The position numbers and the translations under genes are program-made. A DNA stretch of 64,000 nt from Candidatus Eiseniibacteriota bacterium (GTDB lineage: Bacteria; Eisenbacteria; RBG-16-71-46), in the NCBI GenBank assembly GCA_036505355.1, contig DASXTP010000085.1, forward strand, positions 1,463-65,462, written 5' to 3'. Below are positions 4,081-41,553 of this stretch, piece after piece. The notes under the pieces were generated by a model that searched no databases, was not told where the DNA came from, and worked only from the letters and a program-made list of their open reading frames with translations. The stretch's first letter is position 1, and the number at the start of each line of letters is the position of its first letter.

Positions 4081-4087
4081 GATCGCC

Positions 4088-6930: not shown

Positions 6931-7092
6931 CGTTCTCGGACTCCTCTCGCGGCCACGCAGGGACGCGCTGCCGCAGCTCGTTCGATGGGAAGCCAGAGGA
7001 CGGCAACGAGGCCGCCCCGGCTCACTCGGGGACGGGCGCAAGGTCGGGCGCGGAAACGCGCGACGACTCCGGCCCGTCAGCCCGGAAGCGAG

Positions 7093-7533
7093 CTAGGCGA
7101 GAGGAGGGGCGCGGCCGAGACGCTGCGCCGGGAGGTCGAGCCGGGTGGGTGGACTCTCGTCGGAGACGCGCGGGGCGCGCACCGACGGGACCAGGGCGAG
7201 GATGGCGGGCGCCGACGGATGCAGAGGCAGCAGCAACGGGGTCACCGCGTCGCCCCGCTCGATCTGCGGCTTCGAGACCGGCGCGGCCGACACGCAGCAG
7301 GGAGACACGGCATGCGCTGCGCCTCGCTGCGGGCTCTTGGCCGGAGCGGCATGGCCGCAGTGGGAAGAACCGGTCGAGGCGGCCGCCGCCGGGGTGGACA
7401 AGCAGGACATAGGCACACCACCGAGCGCTCCGAGCAGGCAGTAGTTGCTGCCGACGAGGAAGAGCAGCATCGCGGCCACCCTCGTCGGGTGACTCCATCG
7501 GGTGCTCGGTCGGTATGGACTCATGTTCGGCAT
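7093..7533 (-). CDS. hypothetical small membrane-anchored Cys/His-containing protein; possible first gene of the metal-efflux operon
   Basis: This is the tail of the artefactual 1104-aa ORF 7093..10407. It is a separate unit starting MPNMSPYRPS... (ATG 7533 or 7524, with GGAG upstream). It has one hydrophobic helix (AAMLLFLVGSNYCLLGALGG), HCGH and CC motifs, and high third-position GC consistent with coding. The family is not recognised. Confidence 0.4.
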   Translation of the reverse strand: MPNMSPYRPSTRWSHPTRVAAMLLFLVGSNYCLLGALGGVPMSCLSTPAAAASTGSSHCGHAAPAKSPQRGAAHAVSPCCVSAAPVSKPQIERGDAVTPLLLPLHPSAPAILALVPSVRAPRVSDESPPTRLDLPAQRLGRAPPLA

Positions 7534-7751
7534 TATGATCGGCTCCCGGCCCACGCCGCTTGTCCCAAGGCCGTCAACTCTTCCGCGGGGATTCGCCGGA
7601 TCCCCCGCAATCACCGTGCCCTGGCGGTTCGAAGGCCGTAACCGACTCCAGGAACACGGGCCTTGCCGATCGTGGACCGCCCGAATGCTCTGACGCGGCG
7701 CTTCGGTCACTGACGGCTTGGCAGCCGGCCATCGTTCCATGGCAGCCAGGG

Positions 7752-10407: not shown

Positions 10408-10601
10408 GCGAGTGGCTCAACGGAGTCTTCGGTTGGTGTCGGCATGCGATCTCCCTTGAATGGACTCTGTGGAGTTCCCTGCAACGGACGCGATGCCGCT
10501 CGGCGTCAAAAGCGAGCGGCCAGTTCACTTGCTAACAACAGGCCCCGAACCGCAGGCGGGCCACCTGAGGATACCCGCCTCCGACCGGCTGGCGCCCCGC
10601 C

Positions 10602-11537
10602 TCACCCCTCGGCCTTGAGTCCGCCACCCACCCGCTGGTGAGCGCGCTCGCTTTCCAGCGCCGGCTCGACGTGAACGATGACGTCGGTCAGGCCCGGCCA
10701 GCGGACCCTCAGGCGGCGCTCGACGCGATGGCCGAGGGCATGGGCCTCGGCCAACGGGGTCGCCGGGTCCACCAGGATGTGCAGGTCGAGGTGGATGTCG
10801 TCGTCGGGACCGCGCGAGCGCACGTTGTGCACCTCGAGCACGCCAGGCTCTTGCAGAGCCGCCGTCTCGACCTCGCCGGGCGGCAGCCGGCGCTCGTCCG
10901 ACAAGGTCGAGAGCGTGGACTGCAAGATGCGGATCCCCGCGCGCAGGATCAAGCCGACGATGAAGGTGGCGGCGATCAGGTCGGCCCACATCCAGCCGGC
11001 GCGGATCATCAGGAAGCTCCCCAGCACCAGCAGGCTCGCCAGCACGTCGCTGCCGGTGTGGGCCGCGTCCGACAGCAGCAGCTCGCTCTTCAGCCGCTTG
11101 CCTTCGCGGCCCTCGTAGATCACCACCATCAGGTTGACGGCGAGCGTCAAGCCCAGGACCACGAACCCGAGGCCGGTGATCTCGGGGAGCTTGGGCTCGC
11201 GCAGGCGACCGACCGAGGCGGTCACGATCCCATAGCAGCCGGCGAACAACATCACCGCCACCCCGAGCGCGGCGAAGGTCTCGTACTTGCGATGCCCGTA
11301 CGGGTGGTTGCTGTCGGGCGGTCGTCGGGCCACCGCGATGCCGGCGAGCCCGATCACGTTCGACGCGGCGTCGAGCAGCGAATGCACGCCGTCGGCACCG
11401 ATGGCGATCGCCCCGGAGCGATAGCCGTAGAGGAGCTTGGCCAGCGCCACGATCAGATTGAGCCCGAGGATCAGCCACAGCACGCGGCTGATGCCGGCAA
11501 GCCTCGAGGCAGCGGGATCGCGGAGGTCCACGGGCAC
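10602..11537 (-). CDS. cation diffusion facilitator (CDF) family divalent-metal transporter
   Basis: 311 aa. It has CDF signatures (HSLLDAASNVIGL, HPYGHRKYETF, six TM segments and a C-terminal cytoplasmic domain). Confidence 0.9.
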   Translation of the reverse strand: MPVDLRDPAASRLAGISRVLWLILGLNLIVALAKLLYGYRSGAIAIGADGVHSLLDAASNVIGLAGIAVARRPPDSNHPYGHRKYETFAALGVAVMLFAGCYGIVTASVGRLREPKLPEITGLGFVVLGLTLAVNLMVVIYEGREGKRLKSELLLSDAAHTGSDVLASLLVLGSFLMIRAGWMWADLIAATFIVGLILRAGIRILQSTLSTLSDERRLPPGEVETAALQEPGVLEVHNVRSRGPDDDIHLDLHILVDPATPLAEAHALGHRVERRLRVRWPGLTDVIVHVEPALESERAHQRVGGGLKAEG

Positions 11538-11827
11538 CAGTGTACAGGACCGCGAGACTCACCACGCACCGCCGGAGCCAGCGCGGCTCGGGCGCGACGC
11601 TGGCGCTCGGCAGGCGCGGCGGCTGTCGGGCTGTCAGGGTCGGCGTCTGTCGGCGGCCGAGGAGGCCGCCCGCGATGCGGGCCCGGCAGCAAGCTCTCGC
11701 CCGTGCACCGGTTGCGCGCACCAAAGGTCGGTGCCGCGGCCGCATTTGCTGGCATGGCGATTGCGGCGCGATGTTCGATGCGCGGTGCGCGCGTCTTGGC
11801 GCTGGCACCGGCGGGCGCGGAGCGATC

Positions 11828-12481
11828 ATGGCTACGACCTTGCAATCGTTCGGCAGCGAGAGAGCAGTGCCCGAAGGCCGGCTCTATCGCTTGCGCGACC
11901 GCGCCCCGGTGCTGCTGCGTCCGATCCGACCCGAGGACAAGGGGCGGCTCATGGAAGGCTTTGAGCGGCTGTCCCCCGAGTCCCGCTACCAGCGGTTCAT
12001 GGCCGCGGTCGCCGGGCTCTCGGAATCCCAGCTTCGCAGGTTCACCGAGATCGATTATGCGGACCACATGGCCTGGATCGCGCTCGACCCGTCCACTCCC
12101 GACCAACCCGCGGTCGGGGTGGCGCGCTACATCCGGCTCCCGGGGCAGCCGGCGGTCGCCGAGGTCGCGGTCACGGTGCTCGACGACTACCAGGGTCGAG
12201 GTCTCGGAACGTTGCTGCTCGGCCTGGTCAGTCGGTCCGCCGCGCAACAGGGGATCGCCACCTTCCGCGCCTACGCGCTGGAAACCAACTCCGCCATGAT
12301 TCGCATCCTACGCGACCTCGGCGCGGCGGTCCGACGCGAGGACACCGGCGTGCTCCGGCTCGACGTGCCCGTGCCGCGTGACGTAGGCTCGCTTCCGGAT
12401 TCGCCCACCGGGCGGGCGTTCCAGGCGATCGCCCGCAGCTCGTGGGCGGTGGATGAGCCCATCGGGGGGAGGACGCCGTGA
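11828..12481 (+). CDS. GNAT-family N-acetyltransferase (Pat-type protein acetyltransferase-like domain)
   Basis: Internal ATG at 11828 (MATTLQSF...) of ORF 11540..12481. It carries LLRPIRPEDKGRLMEGFERLSPESRYQRF and an acetyl-CoA-binding motif, DDYQGRGLGTLLL. Confidence 0.8.
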   Translation: MATTLQSFGSERAVPEGRLYRLRDRAPVLLRPIRPEDKGRLMEGFERLSPESRYQRFMAAVAGLSESQLRRFTEIDYADHMAWIALDPSTPDQPAVGVARYIRLPGQPAVAEVAVTVLDDYQGRGLGTLLLGLVSRSAAQQGIATFRAYALETNSAMIRILRDLGAAVRREDTGVLRLDVPVPRDVGSLPDSPTGRAFQAIARSSWAVDEPIGGRTP

Positions 12482-12957
12482 AGATCCTCGCCGGCGTGGA
12501 TGATTCCGCGAACTCGCGGGCGGCGCTCGACTTCATCCGCCGAGCTGCGTGGCCGGCCGGCACCGAGGTCATCGTGCTCTCGGTGGCCGTTCCGCAAGTC
12601 GCCGCCTACTCGATGATGGACGCCGGAGCGGCGAGCTACCTGAAAGAGATCCAGGATGCCCTGGTTCGCCGGCACGAAGAGCTCGCGGCTCGCGCCGAGC
12701 ACGAACTCCGCCAGGCCGGCGTGTCGGCCCGGGCGCAGGTCGCCCAGGGGGACCCCCGCGACGTGCTGGTGCGCGCCGCCGAGGCCGAACGAGCCGACCT
12801 GTTGGTGGTGGGCTCGCACGGACGGTCGGGGCTCGCCAAGCTGCTCATGGGAAGCGTCGCCAACCACGTCGTCACCCACGCGCCGTGCAGCGTGCTGGTG
12901 GTGAAGATTCCGCCCGCCCAAGAACCCGCACGAGAATCGGGGGGAGAACGATCGTGA
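12478..12957 (+). CDS. universal stress protein (UspA family)
   Basis: 159 aa with the ATP-binding USP motif VVGSHGRSGLAKLLMGSVANHVVTHAPCSVLVV. The GTG start overlaps the GNAT stop as GTGA (12478-12481). Confidence 0.9.
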   Translation: MKILAGVDDSANSRAALDFIRRAAWPAGTEVIVLSVAVPQVAAYSMMDAGAASYLKEIQDALVRRHEELAARAEHELRQAGVSARAQVAQGDPRDVLVRAAEAERADLLVVGSHGRSGLAKLLMGSVANHVVTHAPCSVLVVKIPPAQEPARESGGERS

Positions 12958-13454: not shown

Positions 13455-13744
13455 GACACTGCCGGCTGCCTGAACCGAAGGGGGCGCCTGGCGGCGAAAG
13501 CGGTCGACGCGCGACGCGGCCCGGCTGTCATTTGGTCAGAGCCTGCCAGGATGGCGGGGGAGGCTCCCGTTCGGAGGCCCGCGCAGGACGGCCGAGCCTA
13601 GCGGAGCGACCTCTCGCAAGCCCTGGGCTCCCGATTTCTGACGAGTCCCTGACGAGAATCGGCCTGGGCGCCGCTCTCCAGACGCGGCACGGACCATGCG
13701 TGGTCAAGCACTGAACGGCCCATAGCCGGGCCGGGGCAGGAGCC

Positions 13745-14668
13745 ATGGCATCCACTCGACAGCCGTGGGCGATCGTGCTCGCCGGCGGGGAAGGCTCCCG
13801 TGTCCGAGGGCTGACCCGCGATGCCGGCGGGTGGTCGGTACCCAAGCAGTTCTGGCGCTTTGGGCACGAGCCGTCCCTGCTCGAGCGCACGCTCCGCAGG
13901 GCGCAGTGCCTGACGCCGCTCGATCGCGTGGTTCCGGTGGTGGCCGAGCACCACCGGCGCTGGTGGCGCTCGCAGCTCCGCCACCTTCCGGCCGGCAACG
14001 TGGTGGTGCAGTCGGTCAGCCGCGGCACCGCGACCGGGCTGCTCGCTCCGCTCCTCCAGGTCTTCTGGCGCGAGTTCGACGCGCTGGTGATGGTCCTGCC
14101 GTCGGACCATCACGCCCGCGACGAGCGACCGCTCGAGGATGCGCTCCACCGCGCGATCCAGGCCGCCTCGAACTGGCCCGGGTCGGTGATGCTGCTCGGC
14201 ATCGAGCCCGACGCACCGGATCCCGACTATGGCTGGGTGCTCCCCGGCCCGGGGCGCGGGGCCGTGCCCATCACCCGCTTCGTCGAGAAACCGCCGGTCG
14301 CCACCGCCGCCGATCTGATGCGCCGCGGCGCGCTGTGGAACAGCTTCATGCTGGTGGCCACGGCGCGCTCGCTGCTCGGCCTCTACGAGGCGGCCCAGCC
14401 CGAGCTGCTCGCGGCGTCCGTCGATTACCTGCGAGCCCACGGCTGGCAGCCCGAGCGGCTTCCGGGCCTCGAGCGCACGCTGCCGTTTCGGGACTTCTCG
14501 CGCGACGTCCTGGAGCACGTGCCGGAGCGCCTGCGCGTGCTGCGGGTTCCCCCCTGTGGATGGACGGACCTCGGCACCCCGCCCCGTCTCGCGGCCTGGA
14601 TGACGGGGCAACGCGCCATGGCCGCGTCGTCCGCCGAGCCCGCCGCGACCCTGGCGCGTTCGGCCTGA
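13745..14668 (+). CDS. sugar-phosphate nucleotidyltransferase (mannose-1-phosphate guanylyltransferase-like)
   Basis: 307 aa. The N-terminal motif WAIVLAGGEGSRVRGLT...PKQF and the later LPSDHH and GIEPDAPDPDYGW motifs are typical of the NTP-transferase family. Confidence 0.7.
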   Translation: MASTRQPWAIVLAGGEGSRVRGLTRDAGGWSVPKQFWRFGHEPSLLERTLRRAQCLTPLDRVVPVVAEHHRRWWRSQLRHLPAGNVVVQSVSRGTATGLLAPLLQVFWREFDALVMVLPSDHHARDERPLEDALHRAIQAASNWPGSVMLLGIEPDAPDPDYGWVLPGPGRGAVPITRFVEKPPVATAADLMRRGALWNSFMLVATARSLLGLYEAAQPELLAASVDYLRAHGWQPERLPGLERTLPFRDFSRDVLEHVPERLRVLRVPPCGWTDLGTPPRLAAWMTGQRAMAASSAEPAATLARSA

Positions 14669-14844
14669 TCCGGGGCCGAGAATCGAGACCGCACGAAACG
14701 CTTGACGTGACCCCCTGGTCTCGATAACCGTCTCCGCGCCACCATCAGGGTCCCCCAGGATCCAAGCGACATCGCCGTCTTCCCAACTCGGTCGGAGCGC
14801 GGCCGTGAGACGCCACGGTGCTCCCGAACCGGAGGAGCGCGCCC

Positions 14845-15768
14845 ATGATGAGCCGCGGTGTGGTGTTCTCTCTCGCCTTGCTCGCCGCCTCGCTGTCGAT
14901 GCTGGTCATGGCCCGGCCGCCGTCCTCGCAGTCGGCGCCCCACGCCGTCGGCTCGGAGGCGTGCAAGGACTGCCACCAGGACCAGTGGCAGGCCTTCCAG
15001 CACAACCCCCATGCCCGGGCCGAGATGGACCAGGCGGTGGTGGCCGACCAGGTCGGCTGCGAGTCGTGCCACGGCCCCGGATCGGCTCACGTCGAGGCGG
15101 GAGGCGACCGCTCGGACCCGGGGTTCGCCTCGATCCGCAACTTCAAGACCCTCTCCGCCAAGGACGCCAGCGAGGTGTGCGCGTCCTGCCACAAGGCCGG
15201 CGAGCAGTTCTACTGGGAACACAGCAGCCACGCGCGCAACGACGTCTCGTGCGTCCAGTGCCACAGCATCCACCATGCGAAGAACGAGGGAGCCGGCCCG
15301 ATGCTGACGGCAAGCGACGTCAACCACCTGTGCATCACCTGCCACAAGGACAAGCGTGCCGCGCTGGCGCGCTCGGCGCACATGCCGCTCCGCGAAGGAA
15401 GCATGACCTGCGTGGACTGCCACAATCCGCATGGCGCGCCGGCGGCGCGCATGATCCGGGCCGCGACCGTCAACGAGCTGTGCTACAAGTGCCACGCGGA
15501 CAAGCGTGGGCCGTTCCTGTGGGAGCACCCGCCGGTGCGCGAGAACTGTCTCAACTGTCACCAACCACATGGCTCGAACAACGACAAGGTGCTGGCGGGC
15601 AAGCGACCGTATCTGTGCCAGCGCTGCCACGTCGGGACCCGGCATCCGAGCACCCTCTACGACAAGCCCGACCTGCTCGCGAACCGGCTGTTCAACCGCT
15701 CCTGCACCAACTGTCACAGCCAGATCCACGGGTCGAACCACCCGTCGGGCAAGTACTTCCACCGATAG
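14845..15768 (+). CDS. mtrA: periplasmic decaheme c-type cytochrome, MtrA/DmsE (MtoA/PioA) family
   Basis: Ten CXXCH motifs counted: CKDCH, CESCH, CASCH, CVQCH, CITCH, CVDCH, CYKCH, CLNCH, CQRCH and CTNCH. It has a signal peptide and a C-terminus (CTNCHSQIHGSNHPSGKYFHR) typical of the family. I chose the ATG at 14845 because GGAGGA lies 8 nt upstream. Confidence 0.9.
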   Translation: MMSRGVVFSLALLAASLSMLVMARPPSSQSAPHAVGSEACKDCHQDQWQAFQHNPHARAEMDQAVVADQVGCESCHGPGSAHVEAGGDRSDPGFASIRNFKTLSAKDASEVCASCHKAGEQFYWEHSSHARNDVSCVQCHSIHHAKNEGAGPMLTASDVNHLCITCHKDKRAALARSAHMPLREGSMTCVDCHNPHGAPAARMIRAATVNELCYKCHADKRGPFLWEHPPVRENCLNCHQPHGSNNDKVLAGKRPYLCQRCHVGTRHPSTLYDKPDLLANRLFNRSCTNCHSQIHGSNHPSGKYFHR

Positions 15769-15772
15769 GAGG

Positions 15773-17986
15773 ATGCTCATGACGACCCTGAGACTTGCAG
15801 TCGCGACGGCGCTCGCGTGCGGCATGGTCGTGAGCGCGTTCTGTCCGGTGGCGCGGGCCGGCGAGGGCGAGGTCTCCTTCGGCTCCCAGTGGTGGGATCA
15901 GACGGTCCGGGACGCCAAGTACGACGAGTTCAGCCAAGTGCCGCGGGGGGGCTTCCTCGAGTCGTTCGTGCTGCGCGAATGGTCGGGGCGAAACAGCCTG
16001 GCGCTGTGGGGCGCCAACGGGCTGCGCAGCGACCAGGCCTCGAAGCTCACCTGGGCGAACGGTGCGCGCTGGCGCGTGGATCTCGGCTACACGCAGATTC
16101 CCCACCAGTTCAGCCATACCGCGCGCTGGGGATGGACCCAGACCGCCCCGGGCGTTTTTACGCTGCCGGACACACTGCAGGCGCGGAACCAGGCCCTCCC
16201 GACCAGCTACACGCCGCGGATGGCGGACTTCCTGGCCGACGCGCCGACCATCAAGCTCGGATTCGACACCCACATCTCGAATGCCCGGTTGCGGGCGCGA
16301 CCAGCGAGGGGCTGGCAGTTCGAGGCCCGAGGCACCATGCGCGAGCGGTCGGGACAGAAGCCCTATGCCCTGGATTTCGGCTTCAGCACCGCTCTCGAGA
16401 ACCCCGAGCCGATCAACCAGCGCATGGTGGACGCGGACTTGATCGCCAGCTACCAGCGCAGCCGGTTGAGAGCCCAGGCGAGCGTGGGGCTTTCCACCTT
16501 CGACAACGCGATCAGCACGCTGATCGTGGACAACCCCAAGCGGAATTTCGACACCAAGGGTGGCGACGGGCCGAGGGTGGGGCAACTCGACCTCTACCCG
16601 GACAACCAGGTGGTGCGCGGCTCGCTGGCTCTCTCCTACCTGCTGCCGAAGCGCACCGCGATCGCGGCCACGCTCGGCATCGCTCAGGGGAAGCAGGACG
16701 ACGACTTCCTGCCGTTCACGACCAACACCCTGGTGGACACCATAGGAGGAGACCTCAGTACCATAGGCAACAAGACGACCCTCGACTCGCTCGCGGCGCG
16801 GAGACTGGACGGGAAGACCACCCAGCTCAACGGGGACGTCCGGCTCACCACCAGCCCGGTGCGGGGTCTCGATGGAACCCTGCGGTTCCACTACACCGAC
16901 TACGACGACCGCACCGAGGAGCGGAACTGGATCGGCCAGACGCCCTACGACGTGACGTGGCAGCGTTTCATCGAGCTCGAGAGCGGGCCACACGGCAACA
17001 CGCAATGGCAGGGCGGGGTCGACGCGGACTACGCTTTCGCCTCGCAGTTCAGGCTGGGGGTCATCGCCGAGTATCGCTCGCGGGAGCGCGAGGAGCGTGA
17101 GGTAGAGAAGGACCACGAGACGGTGCTGGGCGGCCGCACGCGACTGCGCCCATGGGATGGGTTCGAAGTCTCGGGCCGCTACACGCATGGCGACCGTAAG
17201 CTGGACGAGTTCCTGGGCGAGGACTACATCGGTTTACGCACCCGCTTCGACCCGACGGCCCCCGGGCTCTACGACTCCCTGGGACAGCTCGAGCAACCCG
17301 ACCTGCGGCGGTTCGACGTCGCGAACCGCGTCCAGGATCTGGCCACGGTGGGCGCGTCCTACGCCTTCGGCGAACGCCTGGACCTGTCGGCGAGCTACGA
17401 CTACCTCAAGAACGATTACAAGGACACGAAGTTCGGCCTTCAGGACGAGACGCAACACACGGCAGCCGCCAACGCGACCTGGCACTTCAATGACCAGGTC
17501 GACCTCGACTGGGGAGGCGGCTACAGCGAGACCGAGACCAACCAGGCGTCGCGACAATCGGGCTCGTCGATCCCCTCCACCTCGTCCCTCGACGACTGGG
17601 GCGCCGACTTGAAGGACCGGGACGGCTTCGCGGCCGCAGGGTTCGAGTGGACTCCCAAGGGAAGGATCTCGCTCTCGGGCAGGTACCAGCTGAGCGTGCA
17701 CGACGCGAAGTTCGATCTGAGCAATGCCACGAGCACCGCACAGGACCTCCCGACGACGATCTACCGTCGACACGAATCGCTCTTGGACGCGAGCTGGCGA
17801 TGGCTCGAGAGCACGACCGTCGTGGGGCGCTGGGGCTGGGAGGAGTACGACGTCGACGACTGGGCTACCAACGACGTGCCGCTCATCTTCCCGGTCACCG
17901 GCACCGCGACGGCGATCTTCCTGGGGGACAGCGCCCGCAGCTACAAAGCGCACCGAGTCGCCCTGCTGGTGAAGCACCGCTTCTGA
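15773..17986 (+). CDS. mtrB: MtrB/PioB-family decaheme-associated outer-membrane beta-barrel protein
   Basis: ATG at 15773 directly after AGGAGG, 4 nt downstream of the mtrA stop. About 737 aa with a signal peptide, an alternating beta-strand pattern rich in Y/W/D/G, and a C-terminal ...LLVKHRF. It follows the decaheme gene as in mtrAB, pioAB and mtoAB. Confidence 0.85.
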   Translation: MLMTTLRLAVATALACGMVVSAFCPVARAGEGEVSFGSQWWDQTVRDAKYDEFSQVPRGGFLESFVLREWSGRNSLALWGANGLRSDQASKLTWANGARWRVDLGYTQIPHQFSHTARWGWTQTAPGVFTLPDTLQARNQALPTSYTPRMADFLADAPTIKLGFDTHISNARLRARPARGWQFEARGTMRERSGQKPYALDFGFSTALENPEPINQRMVDADLIASYQRSRLRAQASVGLSTFDNAISTLIVDNPKRNFDTKGGDGPRVGQLDLYPDNQVVRGSLALSYLLPKRTAIAATLGIAQGKQDDDFLPFTTNTLVDTIGGDLSTIGNKTTLDSLAARRLDGKTTQLNGDVRLTTSPVRGLDGTLRFHYTDYDDRTEERNWIGQTPYDVTWQRFIELESGPHGNTQWQGGVDADYAFASQFRLGVIAEYRSREREEREVEKDHETVLGGRTRLRPWDGFEVSGRYTHGDRKLDEFLGEDYIGLRTRFDPTAPGLYDSLGQLEQPDLRRFDVANRVQDLATVGASYAFGERLDLSASYDYLKNDYKDTKFGLQDETQHTAAANATWHFNDQVDLDWGGGYSETETNQASRQSGSSIPSTSSLDDWGADLKDRDGFAAAGFEWTPKGRISLSGRYQLSVHDAKFDLSNATSTAQDLPTTIYRRHESLLDASWRWLESTTVVGRWGWEEYDVDDWATNDVPLIFPVTGTATAIFLGDSARSYKAHRVALLVKHRF

Positions 17987-18137
17987 GGGAGGCCGATGGA
18001 GGCTCCACCCGGAGCCGGGGGCCGGAGGGAACCTCCGGCCCCGGTCTCCGAGACATCGAGGCTGGATACTCCCATTGCCGCCGCCGGCCTAGTCATCTTG
18101 ACGCTGGACCGAGCAAAGGGGGAGGATGGGCCCTGTG

Positions 18138-27184: not shown

Positions 27185-27199
27185 TGGCACGATCGCTGC
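27185..27199 (+). promoter_or_regulatory. candidate sigma-54 promoter upstream of the Cyc2-like gene
   Basis: TGGCACG-ATCG-CTGCC has exact GG-N10-GC spacing and follows the same TGGCACG-N4-NTGCC pattern as 22576-22590. It ends 43 nt upstream of the ATG at 27242. Confidence 0.6.
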
Positions 27200-27241
27200 C
27201 CTTTCAGGCGGTTGCCGTCCCACGCGAAAGGAGGATCCCAG

Positions 27242-28519
27242 ATGAGGGCCACACGTGTCGCCGCCGTAGCACTCGTCGGCTCGGTCACCGTGGTGCTGAT
27301 CTACGGCACCGCCTTCAACATGCCGATGTTCACGCGCAAGTACGATCTGGAATGCGGGTCCTGCCACCTGGTGATTCCCAAGCTGACCGAGATGGGGTTG
27401 AACTTCCGCGCCGCCGGGTTCCGGCTGCCCGACGACATCGGGGCGGAGGACAAGGAGGTCAACAACGTCAGCACCCAGATGTCGACGCGCCTTCAGACCC
27501 GCTACGACGCGGCGCGCACGGACAACGCCGGCGTCAAGTCCGACAAGAGCCAGTTCACCTTTCACGAAGTGACCTTCTACCCGCTCACCGGCGCCTTCGC
27601 CCGCAACTACTCGTCGCTGTTCGAGCTGTCGATCGGGCCCGAGGAGCCGGTCGAGATCGAGAACGCTTATGTCCGCGGCGATTGGAAGGCGGGCCAGGGA
27701 TTCGCGTCCGCGCGGGTCGGGGTCTTCCACCCGTTCGAGGGCTTCGGGGCCTCGGATCGCCCGACGTCTCTGAGCCGGCCGCTGTTCCAGACCACGTCGG
27801 CCAACTTCAACCAGAAGACGTTCTTCACACCGTGGGGGTTCGACGAGTCGGGGGTGGAGCTGGGCTATACCATGAACCGCACCTCGGTCCGCGCCACGCT
27901 GTTCAACGGGCTCACCTTCGATCCGGAGGAGGGAATCGCGCATCCCGCACAGACCGGATCCGGCGGCAACGCCTTCGCCAAGGACCCCAACCGGCCCGAC
28001 TTCCACAACGTGGACGTGCAGCTCTTCGCCAACCAGATCCTGAGCCCGAACGGCGGCGGCGTGTCGCTCTTCTATTACAAGGGAGCTCTCGCCTTGCCGG
28101 TGGACAACGATCCCGACGCCCTGCTCGGCTACTTCCAGAACGACTTCTACCGCGCGGCGGCGTACGCCTCGTACCCGGTGGTGAGCCGGCTGATCCTGAT
28201 GGCCGGCGGGCAGACCGGTCAGGACGAGACCTACACGTCGGCCGGCGGCTTCGGCCCCAAGTCCACCAGCCAAGGCGCCTTCGGCGAGGCCGACGTGGAC
28301 TTGAGCAAGAACTACTGGCTGGCGGGGCGCTACGACTGGTTCGATCCCACCGACGAGAAGGACGACAACGAGATCCAGGCGATCACCGTGGCGCTCAACA
28401 AGCCGTTCAACAACGGCCTGCAGTTCATCTCGGAGTACCAGCACAAGCAGACCAAGCAGGGCACCAGCGCCGACAAGAAGGACGATGCCTTCCAGACCCG
28501 ATTGATCTGGATCTGGTGA
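27242..28519 (+). CDS. fused monoheme c-type cytochrome / outer-membrane beta-barrel protein (Cyc2-like architecture)
   Basis: The ATG at 27242 is preceded by GAAAGGAGGA. The protein is 425 aa with an N-terminal hydrophobic signal. A single CXXCH (CGSCH, nt 27353-27367) sits in the context PMFTRKYDLECGSCHLVIPKLTEMG. The remaining ~380 aa are rich in Gly, aromatic and polar residues with a beta-strand-like alternation, ending ...FQTRLIWIW (aromatic terminus as in OM barrels). The call is architecture-level only; I could not verify homology to Cyc2. Confidence 0.6.
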   Translation: MRATRVAAVALVGSVTVVLIYGTAFNMPMFTRKYDLECGSCHLVIPKLTEMGLNFRAAGFRLPDDIGAEDKEVNNVSTQMSTRLQTRYDAARTDNAGVKSDKSQFTFHEVTFYPLTGAFARNYSSLFELSIGPEEPVEIENAYVRGDWKAGQGFASARVGVFHPFEGFGASDRPTSLSRPLFQTTSANFNQKTFFTPWGFDESGVELGYTMNRTSVRATLFNGLTFDPEEGIAHPAQTGSGGNAFAKDPNRPDFHNVDVQLFANQILSPNGGGVSLFYYKGALALPVDNDPDALLGYFQNDFYRAAAYASYPVVSRLILMAGGQTGQDETYTSAGGFGPKSTSQGAFGEADVDLSKNYWLAGRYDWFDPTDEKDDNEIQAITVALNKPFNNGLQFISEYQHKQTKQGTSADKKDDAFQTRLIWIW

Positions 28520-28641: not shown

Positions 28642-30870
28642 TCAGCCCCGTCGCACCGCTACCCGCGCGTCGACCGCCAGGCATCCTCTCCCGGGTGGGA
28701 GCACCTTGAGCGGGTTCAAGTCCATCTCGGCGATCTCGGGGTGCTCACCCACCAGCTGGGAGAGCCTCAGCAGCGTCTCCTCTAGGGCCGCCACGTCGGC
28801 GGGCGGCGCCCCCCGGTATCCCTCGAGCAGCGGATAGCCGCGCACCGAGCGCACCAGCTCGCGGGCTTCCCGGTCGGTCAGCGGCTGGATCCGGAACGCG
28901 ACGTCGCGCAACAGCTCGACGTGTACGCCCCCCATGCCGAACATCAGGATCGGGCCGAAGGACCGGTCGTGGGTGACCCCGACGATGGTCTCGATCCCCT
29001 CGCTCACCATGGGCTGCACCACCACCCCGGCCATCTGATCCCGCAGGCCCCGACTCTGAAGGCGCCGCTCCATCGCCTCGAAGGCCTCGCGCACCTCGTC
29101 CGCGCTCCTGAGATCGAGGGCCACGCCGCCCACGTCGGACTTGTGGAGGATGGTGCCGGAGACCAGCTTCATCGCGACCGGAAAGCCGAGGCGCCGCGCC
29201 GCCTCGACCGCCGCCTCGGCCCGACTCGCCTGAACCGTGGCCGGGGTCGCGATCCGATAGGCGCCCAGCAGCTCGCGCACCTCGTCGACTTCGAGCCACA
29301 CGTTCGCGCCTTCGCGCGCGCGCCCCAGTGCGGCGGAGAGCGCCGCCGCCGCCCGCGCGGCGTCCACGTCCTCGAAGCGCATCACCTTGCCCTCGGGCTC
29401 CGCCAGCCAGCGCCCATAGCGCACCGCCCGCGCCAACGCGATGGCGGCCGACTCCGGGAACGCGTACGAAGGGATGTGGGCCTGGTGCAGCGACCGCAAG
29501 CCCTCCGGCACGCCGTGTGAGCCCATGAAGCACGACAGCACCGGCTTCGCCGGCTCGCCGCGGTCCTCCGCTTCCCGCGCGGCGGCGGACGCTCCCCGCA
29601 CGATGGCCTGCGCCACGTCGAGCGGCGTGGTGACCATGGGCGGCACGTAGATCGCCAGCACCGCGTCGACGCTCGCGTCCCCGGCCACCCGGTGCACCGT
29701 CTTCTCGAACGCTCCGGCGGTGGCCGAAGCGATCATGTCGACCGGGTTGCGCGTGCTCGCCTCGCGGGGCAGGAAGGCGCGGAGCGCGTCCACGGTCGCC
29801 TCGCCCAGGGCCGGGATCTCGAGACCATGGCTCTCGCACGCATCGGAAGCCATGATGCCCGGCCCGCCGGCGTTGGTCACGATCGCGACCCGGTTCCCGC
29901 GGGGCACCGGTTGGTTGGCGAGCAGGATGGCGACATCGAAGAGCTGCTCGATGGTGTCGGTGCGGATCACGCCCGACTGGCGGAACAGCGCGTCCACCGC
30001 CACGTCGGAGCCGGCCAGGGAGCCGGTGTGGGAGGCGGCTGCCCGCACGCCGGCGCGGGTGCGTCCGCTCTTCACCGCGACGATCGGCTTCTTCCTTCCG
30101 ACTCGACGAGCGATCTGCGTGAAGCGCCGAGGGTTCCCGAACGACTCGAGGTACAGCAGGATCACGCCGGTCCCCGGGTCCTGCTCCCAGAACTCGAGCA
30201 GATCGTTGCCCGACACGTCGGCCTTGTTGCCGACGCTGATGAAGTGCGAGACGCCGAGGTTGAGCTCGGCGGCGTATTCGAGGATGGCGAGCCCGAGCGC
30301 TCCACTCTGGGACGAAAAGGCGACCTTGCCCGCGGGCGGATAGACAGGGGCGAACGTGGCATCCATCTGGACGGCGGTCTCGGTGTTGATCACCCCCAGG
30401 CAGTTGGGACCCACGAGCCGCATGCCGAAGCGCTGCGCGCACGCGCGCAGCGCACCCTCGCGCTCGGCGCCCTCGGCGCCGGTCTCCTTGAAACCGGCGC
30501 TGATGACCACCACGGCGCGCACCCCCTTCTCGCCGCATGCCGCGACGACTTCCAGCGCGTGCGCGGCCGGGACCACCACCACGGCCAGGTCCACGGAGCC
30601 GGGCACTTCCCGGATCGACGGATAGGCCAGGACCGACTGGACCACCTGCGCCCTGGGATTCACCGGGTAGACGGGGCCGGCGAAGCCGCGCGACACCAGG
30701 TTGTGAAAGATCTCGGCGCCGATGGTGCCGCGCTCCCGGGAGGCGCCGATGACGGCGATCGAGCGCGGCCGGAACACCGCCAAGAGGCCGTGGTCCGAAG
30801 CGAGGTTCGGCTCGGATTCACGATTCACGGGAGCCAGCAGGTCGCCTACCGCGCCTTCCGATGGGGTCAC
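28642..30870 (-). CDS. ADP-forming acetyl/acyl-CoA synthetase family protein (CoA-binding + succinyl-CoA-ligase-like + ATP-grasp domains)
   Basis: FRPRSIAVIGASRERGTIGAEIF...YPVNP is a CoA-binding motif, and the C-terminal region is ATP-grasp-like. I prefer the GTG start at 30870 because AAAGGAG lies 6 nt upstream; the longest ORF starts at 30903. There is no C-terminal GNAT domain. Confidence 0.85.
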   Translation of the reverse strand: MTPSEGAVGDLLAPVNRESEPNLASDHGLLAVFRPRSIAVIGASRERGTIGAEIFHNLVSRGFAGPVYPVNPRAQVVQSVLAYPSIREVPGSVDLAVVVVPAAHALEVVAACGEKGVRAVVVISAGFKETGAEGAEREGALRACAQRFGMRLVGPNCLGVINTETAVQMDATFAPVYPPAGKVAFSSQSGALGLAILEYAAELNLGVSHFISVGNKADVSGNDLLEFWEQDPGTGVILLYLESFGNPRRFTQIARRVGRKKPIVAVKSGRTRAGVRAAASHTGSLAGSDVAVDALFRQSGVIRTDTIEQLFDVAILLANQPVPRGNRVAIVTNAGGPGIMASDACESHGLEIPALGEATVDALRAFLPREASTRNPVDMIASATAGAFEKTVHRVAGDASVDAVLAIYVPPMVTTPLDVAQAIVRGASAAAREAEDRGEPAKPVLSCFMGSHGVPEGLRSLHQAHIPSYAFPESAAIALARAVRYGRWLAEPEGKVMRFEDVDAARAAAALSAALGRAREGANVWLEVDEVRELLGAYRIATPATVQASRAEAAVEAARRLGFPVAMKLVSGTILHKSDVGGVALDLRSADEVREAFEAMERRLQSRGLRDQMAGVVVQPMVSEGIETIVGVTHDRSFGPILMFGMGGVHVELLRDVAFRIQPLTDREARELVRSVRGYPLLEGYRGAPPADVAALEETLLRLSQLVGEHPEIAEMDLNPLKVLPPGRGCLAVDARVAVRRG

Positions 30871-31289
30871 GATGTGCTCCTTTCGAGGGGGCGGCTCGTC
30901 CACGGCTCTCCGCCACGGGACCGCCGTTCATGCAAGGCGGACGCCAGGGGACCTCCCCGGCCGGCCGAGCCCACCGCGGCCGTGAAGCTCGGGTGGGACG
31001 CCTCGGCGCGCCTTTCGCGATCGCGGCGGGTGACAAGATTGCATGCTCCCCTGACAGACTGGCATCGGAGGGCTGTCCGATGCCCGCCTAGCCGCGGTGC
31101 GATCGATCGTCCCAACCCGCCCCACGGATGGCGGTTGTCGGACCCGTTGCCGCCATCGACGGCGCTGGCACATGGGCTGCGGAGACTGACCCGGGCATCT
31201 CTGCTCCCGTGGCCGGCTCGCGGGGAGTCCGCCCCGCGCCGCCCACTCGATCTCCGGGACGGCCCCGTGCCGTCAACCGGGAGGTGACC

Positions 31290-31787
31290 ATGAAACCCGA
31301 GCGCAACCAAGTGTTCGCGCAAGGCCTGGCAGCGGGGCTGCTCGGCTACGCCACCGTCGCGGTGTTCTTCGCGATCGTCAACTGGTTCACCGGCCGTTCC
31401 GCGTTTCACACCGCGGCGCTGCTCGGCAGTGCGCTGTTCTACGGCCTTCGCGATCCGGCCCAGCTTCTGATCGGGCCCGGCCCGGTCCTGGCGTACAACG
31501 GCGTGCACCTGATCGTCTTCTTGTTCCTGGGAACGGTGGCGGCGTGGCTCGCCGATCTGGCCGAGCGCGGGCCCGAGCTGTGGTACGTGGGAGCGGTGGT
31601 CTTCATCTTCATGGCGTTCCACATGTACGGCTTCTTCCTGATGCTCACCCAGCCGGTGCGCGCGGCCCTCGCCCCCTGGTGGATGTTGGCGGCAGGGGCC
31701 CTCGGCTGCGCCGCCATGGGGGGCTACCTGCTGTGGATCCACCCGCGTATCCGCTCGGAGATCCGTCATTACCCCGAGACGACGTGA
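31290..31787 (+). CDS. hypothetical integral membrane protein
   Basis: Internal ATG at 31290 (MKPERNQVF...) after GGGAGGTG. It has 4-5 predicted hydrophobic helices. The family is not recognised. Confidence 0.6.
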   Translation: MKPERNQVFAQGLAAGLLGYATVAVFFAIVNWFTGRSAFHTAALLGSALFYGLRDPAQLLIGPGPVLAYNGVHLIVFLFLGTVAAWLADLAERGPELWYVGAVVFIFMAFHMYGFFLMLTQPVRAALAPWWMLAAGALGCAAMGGYLLWIHPRIRSEIRHYPETT

Positions 31788-38677: not shown

Positions 38678-39125
38678 CCACTCTCGTTGCGTCCGCGACG
38701 GCCTCGCCATTCGTAGGCTCTCTTCCATCCTGCTGGTCCCGATGCTCCTCACCGGATGCCTCCAGTCGGCCGGCCCTCCACCCATCGCGTTGGGAACTCC
38801 CTGCGCGGCGTGCGGGATGGAGATCCGGGACCTGCGCTTTGCCTGCGAGCGCAGGGCCACCACGGCGTGGCGCGCCTACGATTCGATCGAGTGCCTGCTG
38901 AGAGCGGGGAGCATCGCGGAGGGCGTCTACCTCACCGACTACGACCGCAAGACGCTGCATCCCGCCGATTCGCTGTGGGTGGTGCGCGGCGAGTTCCCGT
39001 CGCCCATGGGAGGCGGATTCGCCGCGTTCCTCGACCGCGGCCCGGCCGAAGAGATCGCGGGCTCCCGCCGCGGCCGGGTCGGCCGGCTCGCCGACTTCGC
39101 GCGTCCGGAAGGGGGATCGCCGTGA
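38664..39125 (+). CDS. nosL: NosL copper-chaperone lipoprotein
   Basis: It has a lipobox (PMLLTGC) and the motifs CAACGMEI and FPSPMGGGFAAF, typical of NosL. I infer the GTG start at 38664 (14-nt overlap with nosF), but the start is uncertain. Confidence 0.75.
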   Translation: MRTDSHSRCVRDGLAIRRLSSILLVPMLLTGCLQSAGPPPIALGTPCAACGMEIRDLRFACERRATTAWRAYDSIECLLRAGSIAEGVYLTDYDRKTLHPADSLWVVRGEFPSPMGGGFAAFLDRGPAEEIAGSRRGRVGRLADFARPEGGSP

Positions 39126-41510: not shown

Positions 41511-41553
41511 GCGTCCCGCCTCAAGGCCGGCCCACTCTCACTGTGGAGAGGAG

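What the first reader, a model, noticed from the sequence alone, without database searches (positions are those of the whole stretch)
14845..28519. Hypothesis: a sigma-54-controlled extracellular-electron-transfer / formate module combining MtrAB-type and Cyc2-type conduits
Within 13.7 kb the window holds two mechanistically different outer-membrane electron conduits: a decaheme-plus-barrel pair and a monoheme-porin fusion. It also holds a periplasmic diheme cytochrome, a cytoplasmic NAD-linked formate dehydrogenase and a dedicated redox-type two-component system with sigma-54 outputs.

Further downstream are two terminal reductases that accept electrons from c-type cytochromes, clade II NosZ and cbb3 oxidase. 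One reading is metal oxidation at the cell surface feeding N2O or low-O2 respiration, with the formate dehydrogenase acting in reductant balance or CO2 reduction. The opposite reading is formate oxidation driving extracellular metal reduction.

I am not aware of a described system in which a formate dehydrogenase and a Cyc2-like gene share an enhancer-dependent regulon. That statement rests on my memory, not on a search.
Basis: inference. Interest (0 to 1): 0.75.

Follow-up and report, generated by a model that had tools for sequence, protein, structure and literature searches.

The report
Sigma-54 stress regulon including Cyc2 and formate dehydrogenase
In this uncultured Eisenbacteria genome the listed genes are real, and sequence motifs predict that one sigma-54 regulator switches on the formate dehydrogenase and the iron-oxidase-like Cyc2 porin together with stress genes, so this is a general stress or low-oxygen response rather than a dedicated electron-export module.

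Summary
All the genes are there: MtrA (10 CXXCH), MtrB/PioB barrel, diheme cytochrome c, PAS histidine kinase plus NtrC-type regulator (minus strand), FdsGB-FdsA-type NAD formate dehydrogenase, a Cyc2-family porin-cytochrome (true start 27242), clade II NosZ and cbb3 oxidase. The contig is from a Candidatus Eisenbacteria MAG.

The new result is regulatory. A repeat, CTGNCAG-N-CTGNCAG, occurs 9 times in the window (1.8 expected). Six copies sit 94-125 nt upstream of a sigma-54 -24/-12 element. These pairs precede nuoEF-fdhA, cyc2, an ADP-forming acetyl-CoA synthetase, a membrane ORF, GNAT-Usp and a pseudo-receiver gene. A weaker pair precedes the NTP-transferase gene upstream of mtrAB.

The same pairing occurs 33 times in 263 kb around orthologous kinase/regulator loci, against 2 in 348 kb around paralogous ones. 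There it mostly drives Hsp20, OsmC, Usp and ADH.

So fdh and cyc2 probably do share an enhancer-dependent regulon, but it is a broad stress or low-oxygen-type regulon. mtrAB has no such promoter of its own. In relatives mtrAB lies elsewhere, inside a Rieske/cytochrome b/multiheme operon. The full neighbourhood exists only in this population.

The components are all of known kinds. The predicted regulon, and Cyc2 as a member of it, is new to my searches. Interest is moderate.

The parts
7710..7724 (.). Upstream activating sequence (UAS) repeat CTGACGGCTTGGCAG, paired with the sigma-54-like site at 7606-7621 (-) on the cusC side. The pair lies inside the 3' end of the Ser/Thr kinase gene, so it is less certain.
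   Evidence: The homologous pair is intergenic upstream of cusC in L168.
11623..11637 (.). UAS repeat CTGTCGGGCTGTCAG upstream of GNAT-Usp.
11750..11765 (+). Sigma-54 -24/-12 element TGGCATGGCGATTGCG. It is the top-scoring site in the window (14.2 bits), 120 nt from the UAS, just before GNAT (11771-12481) and Usp (12478-12957).
13525..13557 (.). Two adjacent UAS-like repeats upstream of the NTP-transferase gene.
13685..13700 (+). Weak sigma-54-like element CGGCACGGACCATGCG (7.5 bits). It is nearly identical to the NTP-transferase promoter of L089 (11.4 bits) and precedes the NTP-transferase gene, 13745-14668.
14845..15768 (+). mtrA-type periplasmic decaheme cytochrome (10 CXXCH).
15773..17986 (+). 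mtrB/pioB-type outer-membrane barrel. It is 100% identical to NCBI HEY3215945.1 from a Candidatus Eisenbacteria MAG.
18126..18896 (+). Periplasmic diheme class-I cytochrome c. It is a conserved companion of mtrAB (56% identical to the copy in L165).
18969..19448 (-). Small pseudo-receiver protein that lacks the phospho-Asp and Lys. It is a conserved third gene after the regulator.
19718..19733 (-). Sigma-54 element GGGCATGTCGGTTGCA (13.6 bits) for the pseudo-receiver gene. It is conserved in 16 of 20 orthologous loci.
19820..19834 (.). UAS repeat, 94 nt from the element above.
19877..21232 (-). NtrC-type response regulator (REC + AAA+ + HTH_8). Walker A is GESGVGKE and the sigma-54 contact loop is GAYTGA. 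The start may instead be 21214.
21225..22397 (-). Cytoplasmic PAS-HisKA-HATPase histidine kinase of 390 aa. It starts at GTG 22397, after a GGAGG ribosome-binding site.
22444..22458 (.). Perfect UAS repeat CTGACATATTGGCAG in the divergent HK/nuoEF intergenic region.
22576..22591 (+). Sigma-54 element TGGCACGGAGCGTGCC (11.4 bits), 125 nt from the UAS and about 105 nt before nuoEF.
22697..24247 (+). FdsG/FdsB-like (NuoE+NuoF) fusion: the NAD(H)/FMN module of the formate dehydrogenase.
24244..26886 (+). FdsA-type molybdopterin formate dehydrogenase alpha subunit.
26925..27030 (+). Decayed cold-shock (csp) gene remnant. The gene is intact in L002.
27060..27074 (.). UAS repeat ATGCCATTGTGGCAG upstream of cyc2.
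27185..27200 (+). Sigma-54 element TGGCACGATCGCTGCC (11.8 bits), 118 nt from the UAS and 42 nt before the cyc2 ATG.
27242..28519 (+). Cyc2-family fused monoheme cytochrome-porin, 425 aa.
28642..30903 (-). ADP-forming acetyl-CoA synthetase. It is the commonest neighbour of this two-component system in relatives.
30931..30946 (-). Sigma-54 element TGGCGTCCGCCTTGCA (11.0 bits) just upstream of ACS.
31051..31065 (.). UAS repeat shared by the divergent ACS and membrane-ORF promoters.
31166..31181 (+). Sigma-54 element TGGCACATGGGCTGCG (11.7 bits), before a membrane ORF at about 31290-31787.

Best explanation
The region is a regulatory island of one sigma-54 enhancer-dependent regulon in a Candidatus Eisenbacteria genome.

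Proposed mechanism:
1. A cytoplasmic PAS histidine kinase phosphorylates an NtrC-type regulator whose sigma-54 contact loop is GAYTGA.
2. The regulator binds the repeat CTGNCAG-N-CTGNCAG, about 95-125 nt upstream of -24/-12 promoters.
3. It activates at least six transcription units in the window: a pseudo-receiver gene, nuoEF-fdhA (an FdsGB-FdsA-type NAD-linked formate dehydrogenase), cyc2 (an outer-membrane monoheme porin-cytochrome), an ADP-forming acetyl-CoA synthetase, a membrane protein and GNAT-Usp.
4. It probably also activates the NTP-transferase gene that precedes mtrAB, and possibly the cus efflux side.

In relatives the same regulon drives Hsp20, OsmC, Usp, Zn-ADH, ACS, cusCBA and a multiheme-FeS-NrfD module. 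The most likely signal is therefore oxygen or energy limitation, or redox stress, as an analogue of a dormancy or hypoxia regulon. In this lineage formate/CO2-NAD(H) balancing and a Cyc2-type surface redox protein have been recruited to that response.

mtrAB plus the diheme cytochrome is a separate, conserved unit that has landed next to this island. It is at most read through from the NTP-transferase promoter.

Status of each step:
- Shown by sequence: gene identities, the motif pairs and their lineage specificity.
- Inferred: that this regulator binds the repeat, the nature of the signal, Fe(II) oxidation by Cyc2, and any electron path to cbb3 or NosZ.
For: Gene identities.

Cyc2 membership:
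- The family consensus AMPNFARKYxxxCxxCHTxIPRLN matches the published defining motif (PMC8406198).
- The AF2 model has pLDDT 86.9. Its barrel best matches PorB, OprP and OprO.

Regulon:
- The repeat occurs 9 times in the window against 1.84 expected; 0 of 100 shuffles reach 9.
- 6 of the 9 copies have a sigma-54 site of at least 9.8 bits at 94-125 nt. A random position has one with P of about 0.03-0.04.
- Orthologous two-component loci hold 33 pairs in 263 kb. Paralogous loci hold 2 in 348 kb, and shuffles give 0.65.
- The repeat is at background level in 1.2 Mb of Cyc2 loci from other phyla.
- A sigma-54 element lies between the regulator and the pseudo-receiver gene in 16 of 20 orthologous loci.
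- The UAS plus promoter also sits upstream of nuoEF-fdhA in L094 and L111 and of cyc2 in L005.
- Target families were identified.
- The regulator has an intact REC domain, a Walker A motif and a GAYTGA loop. GAYTGA occurs in HrpS, which is part of the working HrpRS sigma-54 activator (PMC3105312).
Against: - The sigma-54 weight matrix is my own approximation of the published consensus. The repeat was first noticed by eye in this window and four relatives, although it was then tested on independent loci.
- In the two closest independent cyc2 relatives the homologous -24 element lacks the invariant GG (L002 TGCCAC, L003 TGACAC). Sigma-54 control of cyc2 may therefore be weak or recently gained.
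- The nuoEF element is itself part of a palindrome (GGCACG-N3-CGTGCC) and could be a different protein's site.
- The pair at 7710/7621 lies inside a coding region.
- No rpoN gene is in the window.
- Nothing identifies the kinase's signal.
- No expression data exist.
Confidence: 0.6

Rival explanations
1. mtrAB, the diheme cytochrome, the two-component system, the formate dehydrogenase and cyc2 form one functional extracellular-electron-transfer/formate unit. It either oxidises metal to feed N2O or low-O2 respiration, or oxidises formate to drive metal reduction.
For: - All parts are adjacent in the window.
- fdh and cyc2 share the predicted regulon.
- cyc2 lies within 10 kb of mtrA/B-like genes in about 7 of 80 genomes of other lineages.
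- In relatives L167 and L168 a multiheme-FeS-NrfD module beside mtrAB carries the same UAS plus sigma-54 pair.
Against: - mtrAB has no UAS or sigma-54 promoter of its own.
- mtrAB is never adjacent to the orthologous two-component system in relatives.
- In three relatives mtrAB sits in an mtrAB-Rieske-cytochrome b-multiheme operon, without fdh, cyc2 or the two-component system.
- In assembly GCA_040961615.1 the two loci are on different contigs.
- fdhA is followed by a membrane protein, not cyc2, in L094 and L111.
- Most regulon targets are stress proteins.
Confidence: 0.15
2. The regulon is a metal or envelope-stress system of the ZraSR type. The regulator responds to metal stress, and Cyc2, CusCBA, Hsp20 and OsmC serve detoxification of Fe(II) or Cu(I) rather than energy metabolism.
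For: - The kinase core is closest to ZraS (9JFJ, E 5e-37), and ZraR is among the regulator's NCBIfam matches.
- The cus efflux side carries UAS-promoter pairs in the window and in L168.
- cusCBA plus a cupredoxin flanks mtrAB in relatives.
- Chaperone-type targets dominate the regulon.
Against: - The kinase has a cytoplasmic PAS domain and no periplasmic sensor.
- All NCBIfam equivalog scores are far below their cut-offs.
- ACS, ADH and NAD-formate dehydrogenase point to redox or energy metabolism rather than metal handling.
Confidence: 0.15
3. The adjacency is fortuitous and regulation is not shared. The motif pairs at fdh and cyc2 are chance or bind other proteins, and the genes are independently regulated neighbours on a rearranged contig.
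For: - The total count of loose sigma-54 pattern matches in the window equals the chance expectation (58 against 58.4).
- The -24 GG is missing in L002 and L003.
- Neighbourhoods are mosaic.
Against: - The joint UAS plus promoter architecture, with its fixed spacing, is far above chance.
- It is specific to the orthologous two-component loci.
Confidence: 0.1

Closest known systems
Cyc2 fused cytochrome-porin (Acidithiobacillus ferrooxidans Cyc2, Mariprofundus Cyc2PV-1; Keffer et al. 2021, PMC8406198)
   Same: It has a signal peptide, a single CXXCH near the N-terminus, the PxFAR[Q/K][T/Y] motif upstream (FTR here; the family consensus is an exact match) and PxL four residues downstream. It is 425 aa, with a predicted 16-strand-type porin resembling OprO/OprP.
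   Different: - It comes from a heterotrophic-looking Eisenbacteria MAG. Cyc2 homologues in this phylum have been reported (PMC9769843), but their function is untested.
- Its Cyc2 cluster (1, 2 or 3) could not be assigned.
- It has a predicted sigma-54/UAS promoter. I found no description of that for any cyc2.
MtoAB/PioAB (MtrAB without MtrC) and the Mto plus Cyc2 dual pathways of Sideroxydans lithotrophicus ES-1 (PMC9731265, PMC8805035)
   Same: A decaheme MtrA plus an MtrB barrel, with no MtrC/OmcA gene nearby, accompanied by a small class-I cytochrome. A Cyc2 gene is present in the same genome.
   Different: - The companion cytochrome is diheme, not the monoheme MtoD, and there is no CymA/MtoC.
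- Relatives couple mtrAB to Rieske/cytochrome b, three multihemes and FeS-NrfD. The window lacks all of these.
NAD-dependent FdsABG (Rhodobacter capsulatus, 6TG9) and Fdh1AB (Methylobacterium extorquens, 7E5Z)
   Same: The FdsA architecture is complete (2Fe-2S, 4Fe-4S, Mo-bisPGD), with the Cys-His and Arg active-site residues. The NuoE-like and NuoF-like parts are fused, as in Fdh1B.
   Different: There are no fdsC/fdsD genes alongside. It has a predicted sigma-54 promoter and lies next to cyc2.
Enhancer-dependent two-component regulons (NtrBC, AtoSC, ZraSR) and FhlA-controlled fdhF in E. coli
   Same: A PAS kinase plus a REC-AAA+-HTH_8 activator, with a repeat UAS about 100 nt upstream of GG-N10-GC promoters. 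A sigma-54-dependent formate dehydrogenase is a classical case (FhlA; from my own knowledge).
   Different: It is not an orthologue of any named system: every equivalog score is below its cut-off. The UAS sequence is new, the contact loop is GAYTGA, and the regulon content is stress proteins plus Cyc2.
DosRST dormancy/hypoxia regulon of Mycobacterium (analogy only; from my own knowledge)
   Same: The regulon is rich in Hsp20/alpha-crystallin and universal stress proteins, together with redox-balancing enzymes.
   Different: The regulator family and the sigma factor are unrelated. The signal here is unknown.

Membership tests
Cyc2 fused cytochrome-porin | Signal peptide and a single CXXCH near the N-terminus | tested here: met
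   There is one CXXCH (CGSCH) 38 residues from the start, after a hydrophobic leader.
Cyc2 fused cytochrome-porin | AxPxFAR[Q/K][T/Y] motif upstream of CXXCH, and PxL four residues downstream (PMC8406198) | tested here: met
   The window has NMPMFTRKY-DLE-CGSCH-LVI-PKL, with A replaced by T. The family consensus is AMPNFARKY. Of 83 relatives, 73 fit a relaxed motif, 33 fit the strict motif and 81 have PxL. The spacing to CXXCH is 3 residues in all members, whereas the paper says '5'. I could not check the paper's figure.
Cyc2 fused cytochrome-porin | Length of at least 365 aa, with a 16-strand porin domain resembling OprO/OprP | tested here: met
   The protein is 425 aa. The AF2 model has pLDDT 86.9 and pTM 0.84. 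Foldseek's top hits are PorB, OprP (2O4V) and OprO (4RJW).
Cyc2 fused cytochrome-porin | FeGenie HMM hit and assignment to cluster 1, 2 or 3 | not testable with these tools
A Gallionellaceae MAG homologue is 35% identical (L080).
Cyc2 fused cytochrome-porin | Fe(II) oxidase activity | not testable with these tools
   This needs biochemistry.
MtrAB / MtoAB / PioAB porin-cytochrome conduit | Periplasmic decaheme MtrA/DmsE-family cytochrome | tested here: met
   10 CXXCH motifs; TIGR03508 273 bits against a cut-off of 192; 6R2Q_A at E 1e-60.
MtrAB / MtoAB / PioAB porin-cytochrome conduit | Adjacent MtrB/PioB barrel | tested here: met
   PF11854 scores 267 bits against a cut-off of 23. TIGR03509 scores 203, below its 240 cut-off. 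6R2Q_B matches at E 5e-4. The gene starts 5 nt after the mtrA stop.
MtrCAB (reductive type) | Extracellular decaheme MtrC/OmcA | tested here: not met
   No other multiheme ORF is present in the 64 kb.
NAD-dependent formate dehydrogenase (FdsABG/Fdh1AB) | FdsA with the Mo-ligand Cys-His and the catalytic Arg, plus the N-terminal Fe-S domains | tested here: met
   There is a full-length alignment to 6TG9_A, with CARVCH and PLRGQNNVQG conserved.
NAD-dependent formate dehydrogenase (FdsABG/Fdh1AB) | NuoF-like FMN/NAD module and a NuoE-like 2Fe-2S module | tested here: met
   PF01512, PF10589 and PF01257 all hit one 516-aa protein. It matches 6TG9_B, 9WXB_C and 7E5Z_B.
Sigma-54 enhancer-binding response regulator | REC domain with the acceptor Asp, an AAA+ domain with Walker A and a GAFTGA-type loop, and HTH_8 | tested here: met
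   D54, GESGVGKE and GAYTGA (a variant conserved in 26 of 28 orthologues), plus HTH_8.
Sigma-54 enhancer-binding response regulator | GG-N10-GC promoters with an upstream activator site at target genes | tested here: met
   This is in silico evidence only.
Sigma-54 enhancer-binding response regulator | rpoN in the genome and sigma-54-dependent transcription | not testable with these tools
   Only 64 kb of the genome is held.
Named orthologues (AtoSC, NtrBC, ZraSR) | Score above the NCBIfam equivalog cut-off | tested here: not met
   AtoC scores 458 against a cut-off of 714, NtrC 413 against 559, ZraR 369 against 760 and AtoS 252 against 646.
Clade II (Sec-type) NosZ and cbb3 oxidase | Family models above their cut-offs | tested here: met
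   TIGR04246 scores 867 against a cut-off of 625. COX1+FixO fusion, FixP, FixG and CcoI-type ATPase are all present.

The most novel reading that the evidence does not exclude
A previously undescribed sigma-54 regulon of Candidatus Eisenbacteria functions as a low-oxygen or energy-limitation response. Its features are a PAS kinase, a GAYTGA-type NtrC regulator and the UAS CTGNCAG-N-CTGNCAG. It has recruited a Cyc2 porin-cytochrome and an NAD-linked formate dehydrogenase. If so, in these heterotrophs Cyc2-mediated surface redox chemistry (Fe(II) oxidation, or an electron outlet) would be a regulated survival trait rather than a lithotrophic lifestyle. This would be the first enhancer-dependent control described for any cyc2.
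Probability: 0.3. Interest if true: 0.65.

Novelty: new member of a known kind. Interest (0 to 1): 0.45.

Why it matters
Cyc2 homologues are widespread in bacteria that are not known iron oxidisers, and their role there is an open question (PMC8406198, PMC9769843). A regulon context gives a concrete and testable hint. Here cyc2 is predicted to be switched on together with Hsp20, Usp, ACS, ADH and an NAD-formate dehydrogenase. That points to a role under oxygen or energy limitation. The UAS and promoter motifs also give a handle for predicting the regulon in other Eisenbacteria genomes and in metatranscriptomes.

The result also warns against reading gene adjacency as a module. The mtrAB conduit belongs to a different, conserved operon in relatives.

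Tried and rejected
- **Rfam scan of the whole window:** no hit, so no Moco or other riboswitch precedes fdh.
- **Sigma-70 promoter and terminator scan, and RNA folding, of the NTP-transferase/mtrA gap:** nothing significant (z = -1.05). Whether mtrAB is read through from upstream stays open.
- **FNR-box scan:** 12 hits against 4.2 expected, but none convincingly placed before nosZ or ccoN. Not pursued.
- **Reference Cyc2 sequences:** I looked in the supplements of PMC8406198 to assign a cluster and found none held.
- **Sigma-54 motif upstream of cyc2 across 80 genomes of other phyla:** only a subset has one (7 sites of at least 12 bits forward against 1 reverse). Sigma-54 control is therefore not a general Cyc2 property.
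- **The repeat in those same genomes:** at background level.
- **The 111-aa ORF at 26910-27245 and the 177-aa ORF at 18951-19484:** rejected as genes. The first is a csp remnant plus promoter DNA. The second is the antisense of the pseudo-receiver gene.
- **The ATG at 22496 as the kinase start:** rejected. The conserved 'SEHYCQYV' peptide there is simply the UAS read as protein.
- **L169 as an independent relative:** rejected, because it is 99.98% identical to the window.


Full report
**Origin and gene map**

The window has about 69% G+C. I called genes by third-position G+C and checked them with Pfam and NCBIfam. The MtrB protein is 100% identical to NCBI HEY3215945.1, from a 65.5-kb contig of a Candidatus Eisenbacteria MAG. 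A JGI contig, L169, is 99.98% identical over window 5773-27986. It therefore represents the same population. Its independent gene calls agree with mine.

**Check of the observation**

- mtrA, 14845-15768: ten CXXCH motifs; TIGR03508 above its cut-off; 6R2Q_A at E 1e-60.
- mtrB/pioB, 15773-17986: PF11854 267 bits.
- A diheme class-I cytochrome c ending at 18896.
- A NuoE/NuoF fusion, 22697-24247, and FdhA, 24244-26886. FdhA aligns over its full length with Rhodobacter capsulatus FdsA (6TG9_A, E 3e-231) and keeps the CARVCH Cys-His and the catalytic Arg. The fusion resembles FdsB and the fused beta subunit of the Methylobacterium enzyme.
- A monoheme porin fusion ending at 28519.
- Sec-type (clade II) NosZ, a fused ccoNO, ccoP, ccoG and ccoI downstream.

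Three corrections apply:
- The PAS kinase (21225-22397) and the NtrC-type regulator (19877-about 21232) are on the minus strand, divergent from nuoEF. A small pseudo-receiver gene (18969-19448) follows them.
- The porin-cytochrome starts at ATG 27242.
- The DNA between fdhA and that gene holds a decayed cold-shock gene and a promoter.

**Is the porin fusion a Cyc2?**

The protein has no Pfam or NCBIfam hit. It belongs to a large, well-conserved family with 450 hits. The family's N-terminal consensus is AMPNFARKYxxxCxxCHTxIPRLN. Keffer et al. define Cyc2 by AxPxFAR[Q/K][T/Y] upstream of the single CXXCH and PxL four residues downstream (PMC8406198). The window protein has PMFTRKY...CGSCH...PKL.

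An AlphaFold model built on 34 sequences is confident (pLDDT 86.9). It shows a leader, a short heme segment and a large barrel whose best PDB matches are PorB, OprP and OprO. The paper names OprO and OprP as the structural homologues of Cyc2.

The family occurs in Acidobacteriota, Ignavibacteria, Gemmatimonadota, Eisenbacteria, Anaeromyxobacter isolates and a Gallionellaceae MAG. Cyc2 homologues in Eisenbacteria MAGs have already been reported (PMC9769843). I could not assign the Cyc2 cluster, and the Fe(II) oxidase function is inferred.

**Is the neighbourhood conserved?**

I anchored on Cyc2 in 80 genomes. I anchored on the kinase in metagenomes, which gave 39 orthologous loci with the kinase 56-70% and the regulator 68-81% identical. 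I anchored on MtrB through.

Cyc2 and its neighbours:
- fdhA lies next to cyc2 only in L002, a close relative (Cyc2 91%, FdhA 98%, ACS 97% identical). L002 has an intact csp gene between the two.
- In L005 the kinase and regulator are directly divergent from cyc2, with ACS and Usp downstream and no fdh.
- cyc2 lies within 10 kb of mtrA/B-like genes in about 7 of 80 genomes of other lineages.

The two-component system and its neighbours:
- In L094 and L111 nuoEF-fdhA is divergent from the kinase, but a membrane protein, not cyc2, follows fdhA.
- The commonest neighbours of the two-component system are ACS and Usp.

mtrAB and its neighbours:
- mtrAB is never next to the orthologous two-component system.
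- In three relatives (MtrB 61-68% identical) it heads an operon: mtrA-mtrB-Rieske-cytochrome b-two multihemes, then multiheme-FeS-NrfD. cusCBA, a cupredoxin and the diheme cytochrome lie nearby.
- The window keeps cusCBA, the cupredoxin, mtrAB and the diheme cytochrome, but lacks Rieske through NrfD.
- In assembly GCA_040961615.1 mtrAB and the two-component system with cyc2 are on different contigs.

So the whole neighbourhood is specific to this population. Only sub-blocks recur.

**The regulatory result**

A loose sigma-54 pattern is no more frequent in the window than chance. However, two of the seven one-mismatch matches fall, on the right strand, in the intergenic regions before nuoEF and cyc2. 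With an approximate sigma-54 weight matrix they rank 8th and 5th of 128,000 positions.

Comparing upstream regions revealed a repeat, CTGNCAG-N-CTGNCAG:
- It occurs 9 times in the window against 1.84 expected; no shuffle of 100 reaches 9.
- Six copies have a sigma-54 site of at least 9.8 bits at 94-125 nt in the correct orientation. A random position has one with P of about 0.03-0.04.

The pairs precede these units:
- GNAT-Usp (11623 to 11750)
- the pseudo-receiver gene (19820 to 19733, minus strand)
- nuoEF-fdhA (22444 to 22576)
- cyc2 (27060 to 27185)
- ACS and a divergent membrane ORF, which share one repeat (31051 to 30946, minus strand, and to 31166)
- the cus side (7710 to 7621, minus strand, inside a coding region)

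Two further repeats (13525 and 13543) precede a weaker element at 13685 before the NTP-transferase gene. That element is nearly identical to the clear NTP-transferase promoter of L089.

Tests on independent sequence:
- Orthologous two-component loci contain 53 repeats and 33 pairs in 263 kb, with distances clustering at 92-137 nt.
- Paralogous kinase/regulator loci contain 2 pairs in 348 kb.
- Shuffles give 0.65 pairs.
- In 1.2 Mb around Cyc2 genes of other phyla the repeat is at background level.
- A sigma-54 element lies between the regulator and the pseudo-receiver gene in 16 of 20 orthologous loci.

The regulator has the acceptor Asp, a Walker A motif and the sigma-54 contact loop GAYTGA. 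That variant is conserved in 26 of 28 orthologues, while the paralogues have GAFTGA. GAYTGA is the native loop of HrpS, part of the working HrpRS activator (PMC3105312).

**What the regulon contains**

In relatives the pairs sit upstream of Hsp20 (the most frequent target, divergent from the kinase), OsmC, Usp, GNAT, Zn-ADH, ACS, NTP-transferase, small membrane proteins, nuoEF-fdhA and cyc2. In L167 and L168 they also sit upstream of a multiheme-FeS-NrfD module and cusC.

This is the content of a general stress, low-oxygen or energy-limitation response. It is not the content of a dedicated electron-export module.

**Interpretation**

I consider it likely (about 0.6) that fdh and cyc2 are members of one enhancer-dependent regulon controlled by this kinase/regulator pair.

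I consider it unlikely (about 0.15) that mtrAB, fdh and cyc2 form one functional module. mtrAB has no such promoter, and no sigma-70 promoter or terminator was recognised in the 177-nt gap after the NTP-transferase gene. Read-through from that gene is therefore possible but unproven.

The signal is unknown. The kinase is cytoplasmic with a single PAS domain. Its closest solved kinase core is ZraS, and no named orthologue passes its cut-off. Oxygen or redox limitation is an inference from the target list. A metal-stress reading remains possible because cus is a target.

Weak points:
- The sigma-54 matrix is approximate.
- The repeat was discovered partly in the tested window.
- The -24 GG is missing at the homologous cyc2 site of L002 and L003.
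- The nuoEF element is part of a palindrome.
- rpoN cannot be checked.
- There are no expression data.

**Comparison with what is known, and novelty**

All protein components belong to known families:
- Cyc2.
- MtoAB/PioAB-like MtrAB without MtrC.
- FdsABG/Fdh1AB.
- NtrC-type enhancer-binding regulators.
- Clade II NosZ.
- cbb3 oxidase.

- Cyc2 together with Mto in one genome is known from Sideroxydans (PMC9731265, listed).
- Sigma-54 control of a formate dehydrogenase is classical in E. coli (FhlA; my own knowledge).

I found no paper linking cyc2 to sigma-54 control. The only regulatory work found concerns RegBA in Acidithiobacillus. The predicted regulon and its UAS therefore appear to be undescribed. 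They are a new member of a familiar kind of system, and they rest on sequence analysis alone.

Noticed in passing
window 26925-27030: A decayed cold-shock protein gene lies between fdhA and cyc2. The fragments LAQENGEDVFVHF and FDVTRGP are in different frames. The gene is intact (66 aa) at the same place in the close relative L002.
   Followed up: yes
window 18969-19448 (-): A small receiver-like protein without the phospho-acceptor Asp or the conserved Lys. It is a conserved third gene of the kinase-regulator operon and has its own conserved sigma-54 promoter. It may be a feedback or connector protein.
   Followed up: partly
window 22398-22496: The long ORF version of the kinase (ATG 22496) is an artefact. 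Its 'conserved' N-terminal peptide SEHYCQYV is the regulator-binding repeat read as protein. The real start is GTG 22397.
   Followed up: yes
L165, L167 and L168 (relatives of mtrB): There is a conserved supercluster: cusCBA-cupredoxin / mtrA-mtrB-Rieske-cytochrome b-multiheme(416 aa)-NapC/NirT-type multiheme(about 610 aa)-multiheme(244 aa)-FeS-NrfD. It looks like a complete chain from the quinone pool to the outer membrane in Eisenbacteria-like genomes. The window has only the mtrAB-diheme part.
   Followed up: partly
L080 about 7770-11314 (Gallionellaceae MAG): A different kinase plus sigma-54 regulator pair lies immediately upstream of a cyc2 homologue. A strong -24/-12 element (TGGCACGTTGATTGCG, 14.9 bits) sits 79 nt before that gene. 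Strong elements are also seen in L051, L052, L036, L039, L053 and L063. Sigma-54 control of cyc2 may have arisen several times.
   Followed up: partly
window 56796-61235 (+): A class II (B12-dependent) ribonucleotide reductase is interrupted by an intein with a LAGLIDADG homing-endonuclease domain.
   Followed up: no
window 37619-38875 (-) and 39396-41537 (-): Two large ORFs with high third-position G+C (418 and 713 aa) lie between the nos and cco clusters. Neither has a Pfam hit.
   Followed up: no
window 557-7092 (-) and 7093-10407 (-): A CusCBA-type RND efflux system with a YtkA-domain membrane-fusion protein and a downstream cupredoxin lies next to an 1104-aa Ser/Thr kinase with PD40/Tricorn-like repeats. 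A UAS plus sigma-54 pair sits inside the kinase's 3' end, facing cusC.
   Followed up: partly
window 19877-21232 (-) and the orthologues in L086-L123: The sigma-54 contact loop is GAYTGA in 26 of 28 orthologous regulators. It is GAFTGA in 24 of 27 paralogous ones from similar metagenomes.
   Followed up: partly
window 14671-14736: An imperfect inverted repeat (core ATCGAGACC ... GGTCTCGAT, 26 nt apart) lies in the gap between the NTP-transferase gene and mtrA. Its fold is not significant (z = -1.05) and its role is unknown.
   Followed up: partly
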